Assembly: GCA_021801825.1 (NCBI GenBank)
Contig: JAJYXK010000007.1
Span: 24,509 to 88,508 of the forward strand
Source: a bacterium
Lineage (GTDB): Bacteria; Patescibacteriota; Minisyncoccia; UBA6257; JAGOQP01
Direction of reading: 5' to 3'
DNA: 64,000 nucleotides
A model generated the notes under the pieces. That model saw only the letters and a program-made list of their open reading frames with translations. It was not told where the DNA came from and ran no database searches. Positions within the stretch are counted from its first letter, which is position 1; each line of letters starts with the position of its first letter. This document shows positions 2,789 to 6,168 of this stretch, piece after piece. The position numbers and the translations under genes are program-made.

Positions 2789-5700
2789 GTAAAAAATGAG
2801 CGCTACACAAGGGCGTATGGTGGATGCCTTGACACAAAATGGCGATGAAGGACGCAACGTAACTGCGAAATCTTCGGGGAGGTGTGTAGTAACCTGTAAT
2901 CCGGAGGTGTCCGAATGGGGAAACCTGGTTCCGTAAACCGGAATCGCTTCATTACATAAGATAATGAAGAGCGAACCCGCTGAAGTGAAACATCTCAATA
3001 AGCGGAGGAAAAGAGAACAACGTAATTCCCTTACTAGCGGCGAGCGAACAGGGAAGAGCCCAAACTTGAAAATTTTCGCAAGAAAATTTTTGAGGGTTGT
3101 AAGATATATACGCTTTTTTGTTTTTCGCATAGTGCTCTTTTGAGTATTATGCGATGAACGAAGAGTGGAAAAGTTACAAATTATTTTGCTAGCAGAATTA
3201 GCTGGAACGCTAAACCATAGTGGGCGATCGTCCCGTATGCGAAAGCAAAATAACTTTTTAGTATGTAATCTTGAGTACTTCGAGGAAAGACAACCTCGGA
3301 GGAATCATCCCGTACTATCGGGAAAGGCTAAATACATTTTGTGATCGATAGTGAACAAGTACCGTGAGGGAAAGGTGAAAAGCAGGCCGGCGAGGCCGAT
3401 GAAATAGAACCTGAAACCATATGTCTACAAGGAACGGAAGCTCTAATTTTAACTTCGGTTAAAAGGAGCGACCGTGTGCCTATTGAAGAATGAGCCAACG
3501 AGTTTATGTGTATCGCTTGTCTAAGTGCCACGGCACGGAGGCAGAGCGAAAGCAAGTTTTAAAAGAGCGTTCCCGATTTTTCGGGAAGGCGGTACGCATA
3601 AGACCCGAAGCCAGATGAGCTTACCATGAGCAGGATGAACTCTCGAGAAATCGAGAAGGAGGTCCGAACCAGTTGGTTGTGCAAAACCTTTGGATGACTT
3701 GTGGTAAGGAGTGAAAAGCTAATCGAATCTGGTAATAGCTGGTTCTCTCCGAAATAGTTTTAGGACTAGCGTCTCGGAAAAACCTCAGAGGGGTAGAGCA
3801 ACTGGTAGAGAAGTAAAGGGAGAAATCTCGCCTTCTCTGTCAAACTCCGAATACTCTGTTGTATGCCGAGGCAGTCAGACTACGGGGGCTAAGCTCCGTG
3901 GTCGCGAGGGGAAGAGCCCAGATCATCAATTAAGGTCCCAAAATCTATGCTCAGTGTGAAAGGTTGTGATTTGCCGGAGACAGGTAGGAGGTTGGCTTAG
4001 AGGTAGCCATCCTTTAAAGAGTGTGTAACAACCCACTACTAGATGGCAGATTGCGCCGAAAATTTACCGGGGCTTAAGCATAGTACCGAAATTATGAATT
4101 TCCTTGATTTATCAAGGAAGTGGTAGGAGAGCATTCCAAGTGCGCTGAAGCAGGATTCGTGAGAACCTGTGGAGCGCTTGGAAGAGAGAATGTTGGTATG
4201 AGTAACCGCAAAGTAGATGAGAATTCTACTCCCCGAAAATCCAAGGTTTCCTCCGCAATGGAAGTCAGCGGAGGGTGAGGCGGCCCTAAGGCAATGGCGA
4301 AAGCCGCAGCTGATGGACAGCAGGTTAATATTCCTGCCCGCCCGTATAATTCGATGGAGGGACGAGATGTAGTATGCAGAGTGTCTTAATGGTTTGGCAT
4401 CTGTAACTTAGGATTTCTGACTGGCAAATCCGTCAGGATGTTTTTAATAACGAATCCAAGGAACGCAGTGATGTTTACGAAAGTAGATAAAGTTTGCAAA
4501 GCACGTCTCTAAAAAAATCTTCTAAGGTTAATTATATGGGCCCCGTACCGTAATCCGACACAGGTGGGTGAGGCGAGAAGCCTCAGGGGAACAAGTGAGT
4601 CATCCTCAAGGAACTCGGCAAAAAAGCGATCGTAACTTTGGGATAAGATCTTCCCGACGAAAGTCGGGACGCAGCGAAAGTATCTCTGGCGACTGTTTAC
4701 TAAAAACACAGCTTCCTGCTAACTCGTAAGAGGACGTATAGGAGGTGAAGCCTGACCGATGCGAGAAGGTTAACGGTGCGGGTCGTTTCGTAAGAATCGG
4801 CTCAGTGCCCGAAGCCCTCGTCAATGTCAGCGGTAACTATAACCGTTCTAAGGTAGCGCAATTCCTTTCCGGGTAAGTTCCGGAGCGCACGAATGGCTTA
4901 ACGACTGGAGAACTGTCTCGAGGATGAGCTTGGTGAAAATGCGATTCCCGTGAAGACGCGGGGTACCTGCAACGGGACGAAAAGACCCCAGGAGCTTTAC
5001 TGTAGCTTGATATTGGTAATAGGTTTTATCTGCGTAGCATAGTGAGGAGACTTTGAAGTATTGATTTCGGTTGATATGGAGTCGTCAGTGAAATACTCAT
5101 CTTTTGAAATTTATTATCTAACCCTATGGGCAAAAACCATAAGGGACAGTGTCTGGTGGGCAGTTTTAATGGGGCGTTATCCTCCTAAAAAGTAACGGAG
5201 GAGTTTATAAGGTCAACTTAGTCCGGATGGAAATCGGACTGAATGTGTAAAGGCATATGTTGGCTTAACGGCAAGACGTGCATGTCGCGCCGATGCGAAA
5301 GCAGAACTTAGTGACCCGACGGTAATGTATGTTACTTTTTCGAAAGTGACTTACTCTTTATAGAAAGGCCGGAGACAACGGATAAAAGCTACCCTGGGGA
5401 TAACAGGCTAGTTACGTCCGAGCGTCCATAGCGACGACGTAGCTCGGCACCTCGATGTCGGCTCACCCTAGCGCGGGGCTGGAGAAGGTCCCAAGCGTTT
5501 GGCTGTTCGCCAATTAAAAGGGTACGCGAGCTGGGTTTAGACCGTTTAGATGCTGAAGTGATTCAGCGTCTGAATAGTCTAAATCCCACGAGGCAAGAGT
5601 TATTCCAATTTAATTTTATTCAATTTCAATCTTTTCGTTTCATAAATACTTTATGTTAGATTAAATAAATCCAACACATCACGGCGGTCACACAAAGTAA

Positions 5701-6168
5701 TTTGTGTGCATCAAGATAGCTTATTTCGGAGAATTCCCATTCGCACACGCGAAGGAGGACCCCGAGGGAATCTCAATATTATATTGGGAGCCCGTAGAGA
5801 CTACATGCTATCCACCCCACTCATTTTGACGGGTGATGATATAGTCCAATGCACATAGGAATATGTGGAAACATGCGTGAGACAGGTTGGTCTCTATCTG
5901 TTGCAGGCGTTGATGCTTGAGGGAGGTTGACCCTAGTACGAGAGGACCGGGTTGAACGAACCTCTGGTCTACCAGCTTTGCCACCAGGTGAACTGCTGGG
6001 TAGCTATGTTCGGACGGGATAAGCGCTGAAAGCATCTAAGCACGAAGCCCATCCCAAGATTAGGCATCTTAGGACCCTGGAAGACTACCAGGTTGATAGG
6101 ATCTAAGTGTAAGCGTAGCAATACGTTGAGCTGAGGATTACTAATAGTCCATACAGCGTTCATTTTTT
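2789..6168 (+). rRNA. rrl: 23S ribosomal RNA, interrupted by a 330-nt intron; ends approximate (+/-10 nt). 5' and 3' flanks pair (gtacaggtaaaaaatgagcgct / agcgttcattttttatctgtac) as a processing stem
   Basis: Conserved 23S blocks: ggtggatgccttg near 5' end, sarcin-ricin and PTC-region sequences, agtacgagaggaccgg, gctgaaagcatctaag near 3' end. Confidence 0.9.
5546..5875 (+). mobile_element. Group I self-splicing intron (ORF-less) inserted in 23S domain V between ...GGGTTTAGACCGT and CGTGAGACAGG...
   Basis: Removing 5546..5875 restores the universally conserved ACCGTCGTGAGACAGGT. 5' exon ends in U and the intron ends in G. Intron contains GAGACTACA (P7 5'/R-like) and GATGATATAGTCC (S-element-like AAGATATAGTCC). 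Confidence 0.7.

What the first reader, a model, noticed from the sequence alone, without database searches (positions are those of the whole stretch)
5546..5875. ORF-less group I intron in 23S rRNA domain V at an I-CreI-like homing site
Deleting 5546..5875 regenerates the universally conserved ...GGGTTTAGACCGT|CGTGAGACAGGTTGG... The 5' exon ends with U and the insert ends with G, as the group I mechanism requires. The insert carries GAGACTACA and GATGATATAGTCC, which match the conserved R- and S-type core elements (P7/P9.0 region, with GACTA/TAGTC forming P7). No homing-endonuclease ORF is present in the 330 nt. rRNA introns are a hallmark reported for CPR bacteria, and this instance could be folded and catalogued.
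Basis: partly seen in the sequence, partly recalled or inferred. Interest (0 to 1): 0.75.

Follow-up and report, generated by a model that had tools for sequence, protein, structure and literature searches.

The report
Group I intron in 23S rRNA
A 330-base self-splicing (group I) intron with no endonuclease gene interrupts the 23S rRNA gene of a CPR bacterium at the well-known position 2593; such introns are already catalogued in these bacteria, but this lineage has an extra element that pairs with the upstream exon, and I found no description of it.

Summary
Window 5546..5875 is a 330-nt insertion in a full-length 23S rRNA gene (2797..6164). It lies exactly after E. coli U2593, and its boundaries cannot be shifted.

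All group I helices P1-P10 can be placed. The guide sequence UCACG|GCGGU pairs with both exons and gives a U.G pair at the 5' splice site. The last base is G. There is no ORF over 50 aa and no endonuclease remnant.

Rfam RF00028 scores 35.5 bits (E 1.6e-7), below its gathering score of 50. A model of the P3-P8 core found homologues in more than 70 places. There, 94.6% of cells pair and 33 of 39 pairs show changes on both sides.

This is a known kind. At least 120 species, mostly CPR, carry an intron at this site, and published surveys list 2593. However, this intron belongs to a compact lineage that lacks the P7.1/P7.2 of the characterised cyanobacterial L2593 introns.

One feature appears to be undescribed. 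A hairpin starts at intron base 1 and is followed by an element (5577..5587) that pairs with exon positions -13..-4. This element covaries with the exon without exception. It is retargeted in related introns at L1931 and about L2262.

The parts
2797..6164 (+). 23S rRNA gene that hosts the intron. It is followed by 5S at 6318..6425, and there is no 16S in the window.
   Evidence: RF02541 at 2322 bits, model positions 1-2925
5533..5545 (+). Last 13 nt of the 5' exon (E. coli G2581-U2593). Bases 5533-5542 pair with element E, and 5541-5545 (ACCGU) form the P1 5' strand. U5545 is the splice-site U.
   Evidence: Sequence reading; numbering; pairing counts
5546..5875 (+). Group I intron, 330 nt, without an ORF
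5546..5574 (+). Hairpin P1a, which starts at intron base 1 (5546-5557 paired with 5562-5573, loop GUGA). In the extended hairpin A5574 lies opposite splice-site U5545.
   Evidence: MFE fold; compensatory changes against L090, L181 and L183; hairpin pairs with changes on both sides in 50 sequences
5577..5587 (+). Element E (GUCUAAAUCCC), which pairs with 5' exon bases 5533-5542 upstream of P1
   Evidence: Exon -8 with its partner: CG 36, UA 14, none unpaired. Exon -6 with its partner: GC 30, AU 20, none unpaired. Alignment-free contingency table.
5588..5678 (+). AU-rich spacer between E and the guide sequence, specific to the WIN/L090/L181/L183 clade. No consensus structure was found.
5679..5688 (+). 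Internal guide sequence. UCACG (5679-5683) pairs with 3' exon CGUGA to form P10. GCGGU (5684-5688) pairs with 5' exon ACCGU to form P1, with G5684.U5545 at the splice site.
   Evidence: Sequence reading. (U)CACGGCGG lies directly 5' of P2 in 47 of the 52 best homologues.
5689..5708 (+). P2 hairpin, 8 bp, with a GUAA loop
   Evidence: 6 of 8 pairs change on both sides among four relatives. GNRA-type loop in most homologues listed (my reading).
5715..5720 (+). P3 5' strand, which pairs with 5807-5812
   Evidence: All 6 pairs change on both sides; 97.7% of cells paired
5726..5765 (+). P4 (5726-5731 with 5760-5765) enclosing P5/P5a (5734-5737 with 5754-5757; 5740-5744 with 5749-5753). J4/5 is AA at 5732-5733.
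5766..5793 (+). P6 (5766-5768 with 5791-5793) and P6a (5772-5778 with 5782-5788)
5797..5803 (+). P7 5' strand (the R element GAGACUA) with bulged A5798. It pairs with 5842-5847. I infer that G5799-C5846 is the guanosine-binding pair.
   Evidence: P7 pairs are nearly invariant, 70-75 of 76 sequences (helix 8). The assignment of the G site rests on general knowledge of group I introns.
5807..5812 (+). P3 3' strand. It abuts P8 directly, leaving no room for P7.1/P7.2.
5813..5835 (+). P8 hairpin (5813-5817 with 5831-5835)
5836..5847 (+). J8/7 (AUGAUA) and the P7 3' strand UAGUCC (the S element)
5849..5874 (+). P9.0 (5849-5851 with 5872-5874) enclosing P9 (5852-5857 with 5862-5867, loop GGAA)
   Evidence: MFE fold. 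These pairs are invariant in the four close relatives, so there is no covariation evidence for them.
5875..5875 (+). Terminal G (omega G), the last base of the intron
   Evidence: Sequence reading
5876..5880 (+). First bases of the 3' exon, CGUGA (E. coli C2594 onward), the P10 partner
   Evidence: Sequence reading

Best explanation
Window 5546..5875 is a self-splicing group I intron without an endonuclease gene. It lies in helix 93 of domain V (peptidyl-transferase region) of the 23S rRNA of a CPR (Paceibacterota-like) bacterium, after E. coli U2593.

Inferred mechanism:
1. The last bases of the 5' exon (ACCGU, 5541-5545) pair with GCGGU (5684-5688) to form P1, with the wobble pair U5545.G5684 at the splice site.
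2. An exogenous guanosine bound in P7 (G5799-C5846, next to bulged A5798) attacks the bond between 5545 and 5546.
3. The terminal G5875 then occupies the same pocket.
4. UCACG (5679-5683) holds the 3' exon CGUGA in P10.
5. The exons are ligated, which restores ...GACCGU-CGUGAGACAG....

The catalytic core is compact. It has P2 and P9 with GNRA loops and a simple P5, and it has no P7.1/P7.2.

In addition, a hairpin starts at intron base 1 (5546-5574) and is followed by element E (5577-5587). E pairs with exon bases -13..-4 (5533-5542). I infer that E acts as a second 5'-exon-binding site. It would capture the exon strand as it is transcribed and hold it next to a short P1.

The anatomy, its conservation and its covariation are shown here. 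Catalysis and the role of E are inferred.
For: Insertion and boundaries.

Position 2593. The published L2593 host Thermosynechococcus appears in the same pattern scan (L029, 744 nt; PMC1995217).

Group I core:
- RF00028 scores 35.5 bits, E 1.6e-7, over model positions 1-253.
- The MFE fold recovers P2, P3, P4/5, P6, P8 and P9, with z = -4.15.

Covariation:
- Model R1 (P3-P8) finds 77 places in 85 loci.
- On that alignment 94.6% of cells pair, against 76.1% in shuffles and 31-44% when partners are slid.
- 33 of 39 pairs change on both sides.
- The covariation score is 0.400 against 0.138, with 0 of 500 shuffles reaching it.
- With only four close relatives, 17 of 57 pairs already change on both sides, including 6 of 8 in P2.

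Guide sequence:
- The 10-mer UCACGGCGGU is complementary to both exon ends in the correct register and with G opposite U.
- CACGGCGG lies directly 5' of P2 in 47 of 52 homologues.
- A homologous intron at another site has a different sequence at that position.

ORF-less member of a mobile lineage:
- The intron has no ORF and no endonuclease remnant.
- Longer relatives encode I-CreI-family LAGLIDADG proteins.

Element E:
- It covaries with the two variable exon positions without exception in 50 distinct sequences, and G.U pairs are tolerated.
- The alignment-free contingency table has a diagonal of 13, 19 and 13.
- Analogous elements, complementary to their own exons, occur in related introns at L1931 and about L2262.

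Selection:
- Flanking protein genes are only 70-75% identical to L090 at the nucleotide level, while stems change by compensation.
Against: - The Rfam score is below the curated gathering score (35.5 against 50), and the gathering scan of the window did not report the intron.
- There are no RNA data, so splicing is not shown. One bacterial 23S group I intron (Simkania, L1931) has been reported as unspliced; I have only the title of that paper, as cited in PMC11270868.
- In the extended hairpin, splice-site U5545 lies opposite A5574. The same is true in 47 of 50 homologues. This conformer competes with P1.
- P1 and E overlap on exon bases -4 to -6 in this window.
- P1 and P10 cannot be tested by covariation, because the exon bases involved are invariant.
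- Alignments A3 and A6 were fitted to the models, which inflates the percentage of cells paired.
- Sequences related by descent can exceed shuffle controls without any structure being present.
Confidence: 0.85

Rival explanations
1. It is a group I intron by descent that no longer self-splices. Either it stays in the mature 23S rRNA, or it depends wholly on a protein supplied in trans.
For: - The Rfam score is below gathering.
- There is no maturase or endonuclease ORF in the intron or the window.
- The title of Everett et al. 1999, as cited in PMC11270868, reports an unspliced group I intron in a bacterial 23S rRNA.
- P4 has an A.C mismatch at 5730/5761.
Against: - All core helices, the guide sequence, omega G, the bulged A in P7, and J4/5, J6/7 and J8/7 are intact.
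- Stems evolve by compensatory change, while the nucleotide divergence of flanking protein genes reaches 25-30%. This shows continuing selection on the fold.
- The insertion splits helix 93 at the peptidyl-transferase centre, where 330 extra bases should not be tolerated. This last point is an inference.
Confidence: 0.08
2. It is an intervening sequence that is cut out by RNase III without ligation, giving a fragmented 23S rRNA. The roughly 25-bp hairpin formed by the 5' exon, P1a and E would be the cleavage substrate.
For: - A long, nearly continuous hairpin spans the 5' junction.
- RNase III-processed intervening sequences are known in bacterial 23S rRNA and are suggested for short CPR insertions (PMC11270868).
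Against: - The known intervening-sequence sites correspond to 23IS2 and 23IS4, not to 2593 (PMC11270868).
- This reading does not explain the conserved group I core, the guide sequence that pairs with both exons, or omega G.
- The hairpin covers only the 5' junction.
Confidence: 0.03
3. The exon-complementary element E and hairpin P1a have no role in catalysis. They would be either a folding trap that competes with P1, or a guide for reverse splicing into 23S rRNA as a route of spread for an intron without an endonuclease.
For: - Splice-site U lies opposite A, not G, in 47 of 50 extended hairpins.
- A 10-nt guide on top of P1 and P10 would raise the affinity of the free intron for intron-less rRNA. 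This is an inference; reverse splicing of group I introns into rRNA is discussed in PMC1299323.
Against: - In the L2262-site relative L033, the last three exon bases are unpaired in the hairpin, which leaves them free for P1. That fits cooperation between E and P1 rather than competition.
- The element is kept in HEG-bearing members as well (L054, L064, L019).
Confidence: 0.25

Closest known systems
Group I introns at 23S position 2593 of CPR bacteria (site 23IS12 of Tsurumaki et al. 2024, PMC11270868)
   Same: Same host group, same gene and same insertion site, with group I features. My scan found the site occupied in at least 120 species, mostly Patescibacteria.
   Different: That survey stresses LAGLIDADG_1 ORFs at this site and gives no secondary structures. 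This copy has no ORF. I assign it to one of two structurally different lineages that share the site.
Cyanobacterial and chloroplast L2593 introns (Synechococcus C9, S. lividus C1, Thermosynechococcus elongatus: PMC1995217; Chlamydomonas Cr.LSU with I-CreI, from general knowledge)
   Same: Identical insertion point and the same 3' exon CGUGAGACAG. Endonucleases of the same I-CreI family occur in relatives of the window intron.
   Different: - Those introns are about 745 nt, carry a HEG, and have a roughly 65-nt P7.1/P7.2 extension and a short P2 (PMC1995217).
- In the lineage-A loci, which include Thermosynechococcus L029, the guide sequence lies within about 20 nt of the 5' splice site (my reading).
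- In the window intron P3' abuts P8 with no P7.1/P7.2.
- Its guide sequence starts 134 nt into the intron.
- It has the P1a hairpin and element E, which are absent from that lineage.
Compact bacterial group I introns such as the Azoarcus and Anabaena tRNA introns (subgroup IC3; comparison from general knowledge)
   Same: A small core with a simple P5. GNRA loops on P2 and P9 could dock into P8 and P5.
   Different: The host gene differs (rRNA, not tRNA). The 5' domain is much larger. Subgroup membership was not tested, because no subgroup models were available.
EBS1/EBS2-IBS1/IBS2 pairing of group II introns (a functional analogy only)
   Same: Two separate intron segments pair with two adjacent stretches of the 5' exon.
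   Different: It is an unrelated ribozyme class with a different fold and chemistry. No homology is implied.
[quoted passage not shown]
   Same: Intron bases just after the 5' splice site form a helix that continues P1.
   Different: From general knowledge, in Tetrahymena the extension pairs with bases next to the guide sequence. Here the hairpin is self-contained, and it is followed by a separate element that pairs with exon bases upstream of P1.

Membership tests
Group I intron (Rfam RF00028) | Conserved core: the P3-P8 and P4-P6 domains, with the P3/P7 pseudoknot and the R/S sequence elements | tested here: met
   RF00028 aligns over model positions 1-253 with E 1.6e-7. All helices were placed. 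33 of 39 core pairs covary in 76 homologues.
Group I intron (Rfam RF00028) | Score at or above Rfam's curated gathering threshold of 50 bits | tested here: not met
   The score is 35.5 bits, and the gathering scan did not list the intron. This is a database cut-off, not a biological criterion. The shortfall comes from the long, atypical 5' region, which the model aligns poorly.
Group I intron (Rfam RF00028) | P1 formed by the 5' exon end and an internal guide sequence, with a U.G wobble at the splice site | tested here: met
   ACCGU (5541-5545) pairs with GCGGU (5684-5688), giving U5545.G5684. GGCGG is conserved 5' of P2 in 47 of 52 homologues. Covariation cannot be tested because the exon bases are invariant.
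Group I intron (Rfam RF00028) | Terminal omega G and P10 pairing with the 3' exon | tested here: met
   G5875 is the last base. UCACG (5679-5683) is complementary to CGUGA (5876-5880) and lies immediately 5' of the P1 guide.
Group I intron (Rfam RF00028) | Guanosine-dependent self-splicing | not testable with these tools
   This needs an in-vitro splicing assay or RNA reads.
rRNA intron at site L2593 (the I-CreI homing site) | Insertion between E. coli U2593 and C2594 | tested here: met
   The homologous T is nt 2596 of a 2907-nt E. coli copy in which A2058, A2451 and A2660 are each +3.
Cyanobacterial / Cr.LSU-type L2593 introns (IA-like) | P7.1/P7.2 extension between P3' and P8 (PMC1995217) | tested here: not met
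   P3' ends at 5812 and P8 starts at 5813.
Cyanobacterial / Cr.LSU-type L2593 introns (IA-like) | Guide sequence within about 20 nt of the 5' splice site | tested here: not met
   The guide sequence is at intron bases 134-143. The lineage-A 5' end AAATTACATTGCGTTCT is absent.
Mobile intron with a LAGLIDADG (I-CreI family) homing endonuclease | An intron-encoded endonuclease ORF | tested here: not met
   The longest ORF is 50 aa. tblastn finds no remnant. Relatives do carry such ORFs.
RNase III-processed 23S intervening sequence | A short stem-loop replacing a helix tip at the known intervening-sequence sites, with no ribozyme core | tested here: not met
   The site is 2593, not the sites corresponding to 23IS2 and 23IS4 (PMC11270868), and a full group I core is present.

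The most novel reading that the evidence does not exclude
The compact CPR rRNA intron family to which this intron belongs recognises its 5' exon in two parts. One part is a short P1 of 3-6 bp next to P2. The other is a separate element E of about 10 nt, placed after a hairpin that begins at intron base 1, which pairs with exon positions -13..-4. Together they form a pseudoknotted three-helix 5' domain. I found no description of this for group I introns in a limited literature search. E tracks host rRNA polymorphisms and has been retargeted at three or more insertion sites (L1931, about L2262, L2593). It may also guide reverse splicing of copies that lack an endonuclease.
Probability: 0.4. Interest if true: 0.6.

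Novelty: new member of a known kind. Interest (0 to 1): 0.4.

Why it matters
On its own, this intron is one more example of a documented phenomenon. CPR bacteria tolerate self-splicing introns in essential rRNA genes, and its presence explains why the 23S gene is about 330 nt too long.

It has practical value for annotation. The intron falls below Rfam's gathering score, so standard pipelines would miss it.

The added interest lies in the 5' domain. If element E is a genuine second exon-binding site, it would show how a minimal ribozyme with a very short P1 achieves affinity and specificity for a highly structured rRNA target. It would also give a testable route, an extended guide for reverse splicing, by which introns without endonucleases could persist or spread.

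Tried and rejected
- **Metagenome scan.** It anchored on E and the guide sequence and returned 63 places. The rest were chance matches.
- **Spacer 5588..5678 as a mobile repeat.** It has no second copy in the window or in the 120 genome loci.
- **Spacer as a decayed endonuclease gene.** tblastn finds no similarity, and in relatives the ORFs sit in P2 or in core loops.
- **Spacer as a conserved structure.** RNAalifold predicts no pairs.
- **Spacer as exceptionally conserved.** It looked 97% identical to L090 by eye. Measured, it is 94.5%, about the same as the rRNA exons.
- **Extended P10.** CCAAC (5672-5676) could pair with 3' exon GUUGG, but the 3' exon is nearly invariant across hosts, so this could not be tested.
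- **Opposite-strand matches.** The first R2 alignment (A5) was contaminated by them and was replaced by A6.
- **Literature.** Searches for a described second exon-binding element found nothing relevant. Two older papers (PMC2045182, PMC196884) were not available.
- **Subgroup.** Assignment to IA, IB or IC could not be made, because no subgroup models were available.
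Full report
**What is there.** The window carries a full-length bacterial 23S rRNA gene at 2797..6164, followed by 5S. There is no 16S in the window. In a local search the LSU model aligns ...GGGUUUAGACCGU, skips 334 nt where the model has 4 positions, and resumes at GACAG. Read directly, the 5' exon ends GACCGT at 5545. The insert runs from TTAG at 5546 to CATG at 5875. The 3' exon starts CGTGAGACAGG at 5876. Moving either boundary by one base no longer regenerates the conserved CCGUCGUG, so 5546..5875 (330 nt) is exact.

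**Position in E. coli numbering.** The ligated exons match E. coli 23S over their full 200 nt. In the 2907-nt copy I fetched, the homologous T is nt 2596. The landmarks A2058, A2451 and A2660 are all shifted by +3 in that copy. The site is therefore U2593|C2594, the published L2593. A Thermosynechococcus locus with a 744-nt intron turned up in the same pattern scan. This agrees with the 745-nt L2593 intron reported for T. elongatus (PMC1995217).

**Is it a group I intron?** RF00028 matches 5611..5868 over the whole model at 35.5 bits, E 1.6e-7. That is below the gathering score of 50, which is why the whole-window gathering scan was silent. The shortfall comes from the 5' third of the intron, which the model aligns poorly.

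Every helix can be placed by hand and checked:
- P2: 5689-5696 with 5701-5708, loop GUAA.
- P3: 5715-5720 with 5807-5812.
- P4: 5726-5731 with 5760-5765.
- P5/P5a: within 5734-5757.
- P6/P6a: within 5766-5793.
- P7: 5797 and 5799-5803 with 5842-5847, A5798 bulged.
- P8: 5813-5817 with 5831-5835.
- P9.0: 5849-5851 with 5872-5874.
- P9: 5852-5857 with 5862-5867, loop GGAA.

The unconstrained MFE fold recovers P2, P3, P4/5, P6, P8 and P9. Its z-score is -4.15.

**The guide sequence.** Directly 5' of P2 lies UCACG|GCGGU (5679-5688). GCGGU pairs with the exon end ACCGU, with G5684 opposite splice-site U5545. UCACG pairs with the first five bases of the 3' exon. This is the textbook arrangement of P1 and P10. 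A specified 10-mer is expected about 3e-4 times in 330 nt (my arithmetic). The intron ends in G5875.

**No endonuclease.** No ORF in the intron exceeds 50 aa. No remnant of a LAGLIDADG gene is detectable in the intron or the window.

**Relatives and covariation.** Most are Patescibacteria. A few are Omnitrophota, Eremiobacterota, cyanobacteria and others.

The introns fall into two types by their 5' ends:
- Lineage A has its guide sequence at the very 5' end. The Thermosynechococcus intron belongs to it.
- Lineage B, which includes the window intron, starts with a hairpin.

The closest relative is L090, from a Ca. Paceibacterota MAG. Paceibacterota is Minisyncoccota in the current NCBI taxonomy. 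Its intron is 80% identical, its 23S exons are 96-97% identical, and the flanking protein genes are 70-75% identical at the nucleotide level. The differences between the two introns sit in stems and are compensatory.

With four close relatives, 17 of 57 pairs change on both sides, and 96.8% of cells pair against 33-43% when partners are slid. A covariance model of P3-P8 built from these four found 77 places in 85 loci. On that alignment:
- 94.6% of cells pair, against 76.1% in shuffles and 31-44% when slid.
- 33 of 39 pairs change on both sides.
- The covariation score is 0.400 against 0.138, with 0 of 500 shuffles reaching it.

The alignment is fitted to the model, which favours pairing. The number of pairs that change on both sides is nevertheless large. 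CACGGCGG lies directly 5' of P2 in 47 of the 52 best matches. A homologous intron at a different 23S site has a different sequence at that position, as expected for a guide sequence.

Longer lineage-B members encode single-motif LAGLIDADG proteins. The one from L054 matches I-CreI and I-MsoI over its whole length, with E 6e-17 to 1bp7. The window intron is therefore an ORF-less member of a lineage whose other members look mobile at the I-CreI site.

**How it most likely works.** I infer the standard two-step group I pathway, as set out in the best explanation. None of this chemistry is shown here. What is shown is that every element the pathway needs is present, is in register, and is under selection.

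**The unexpected part.** In lineage B the intron begins with a hairpin (P1a, 5546-5574 in the window). It is followed by an element E of about 10 nt (5577-5587, GUCUAAAUCCC) that pairs with exon bases 5533-5542, which lie upstream of P1.

E tracks the host rRNA:
- Exon UUCAGAC goes with GUCUGAA.
- Exon UUCAAAC goes with GUUUGAA.
- Exon UUUAGAC goes with GUCUAAA or AUCUAAAC.

An alignment-free table gives a diagonal of 13, 19 and 13. Within those three exon types the off-diagonal counts are 0-3, and lineage A shows almost nothing. A model of the whole hairpin found 51 same-strand matches. In 50 distinct sequences the counts were as follows:

| Exon position | Pair types with its partner | Unpaired |
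|---|---|---|
| -8 | CG 36, UA 14 | 0 |
| -6 | GC 30, AU 20 | 0 |
| -11 | GU 30, GC 20 | 0 |

The free use of G.U pairs points to pairing at the RNA level, not to a DNA-level inverted repeat.

Related introns at two other 23S sites have the same layout, with elements complementary to their own exons:
- **About L2262.** Exon GGGGCGCUAU goes with GUGGCGCCCC in L033. L119 and L120 are similar.
- **L1931.** Twelve short introns show it, for example exon AUAAUCGUUC with GAACGAUUAU in L006. Covariation is again present.

Sites at about 2500, 2535 and 2657 show nothing comparable.

In the extended hairpin the splice-site U lies opposite A in 47 of 50 cases, so that conformer is not the active P1. In L033 the last three exon bases are unpaired in the hairpin and match the guide sequence next to P2. 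I therefore favour bipartite recognition, in which E holds exon -13..-4 and a short P1 holds -4..-1. A pure switch, or a role in reverse splicing, is not excluded.

**Comparison with what is known.** Introns in CPR rRNA genes are well documented. One survey classed 45% of 968 insertions in CPR 23S genes as group I introns, and it lists 2593 among the LAGLIDADG-rich sites (PMC11270868). L2593 introns were described earlier in cyanobacteria, with P7.1/P7.2 and a HEG (PMC1995217). The window intron lacks both features, so it is not of that structural type, although it shares the site.

I could not assign a subgroup. I found no description of element E in two full-text searches. That search was limited, and two relevant older papers were not available.

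**Verdict.** As a discovery it is a new member of a known kind. The 5'-exon-binding element is the part that merits follow-up.

Noticed in passing
window 5533-5587; loci L001-L120, L181, L183: A hairpin starts at intron base 1 and is followed by an element that pairs with 5' exon positions -13..-4. The element covaries with host rRNA polymorphisms in about 50 species. It is absent from the other intron lineage at the same site.
   Followed up: yes
L033:1310-1646, L119, L120 (site about L2262); L006, L026, L038, L041, L064, L082, L083, L086, L089, L102, L104, L119 (site L1931): Related compact introns at two other 23S sites have the same layout of hairpin plus exon-complementary element. In each case the element is retargeted to the local 5' exon.
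   Followed up: partly
L006, L026, L041, L064 and others, introns at L1931 (window-equivalent 4854|4855): In these short L1931 introns the guide sequence next to P2 reads GCU|ACCU. This puts an A-U pair, not the usual G.U wobble, at the 5' splice site.
   Followed up: no
window 5588-5678: An AU-rich spacer between element E and the guide sequence is 94.5% identical to that of L090, about as conserved as the rRNA exons. The flanking protein genes are only 70-75% identical. The spacer has no predicted consensus structure, no ORF signal and no other copy. The motifs UUUUCGU and UUAGAUUAA recur in some other lineage-B introns.
   Followed up: partly
window 3113-3172 (also 3074-3081 and about 3445-3458): A 60-nt insertion relative to the bacterial LSU model lies in 23S domain I, with two smaller ones nearby. 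All are too short to be introns. They are probably expansion segments or intervening sequences.
   Followed up: no
window 1-2796: The 23S-5S pair is not preceded by a 16S gene. ORFs lie upstream at 898..1668 and 1736..2386, and no SSU hit occurs anywhere in the 64 kb. The rRNA genes are therefore unlinked.
   Followed up: no
L106, L084, L033, L083 and others: Other CPR 23S genes in the fetched loci carry several large insertions, at sites equivalent to L1931, about L2262, about L2500, L2593 and about L2657. The window gene has only the one at L2593.
   Followed up: partly
L036 (MBAA01000200.1, 4720 nt): A contig labelled Promethearchaeota archaeon CR_4 carries a lineage-A L2593 intron with the bacterial-type 5' end AAATTACATTGCGTTCT. 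It may be a mis-binned bacterial contig.
   Followed up: no
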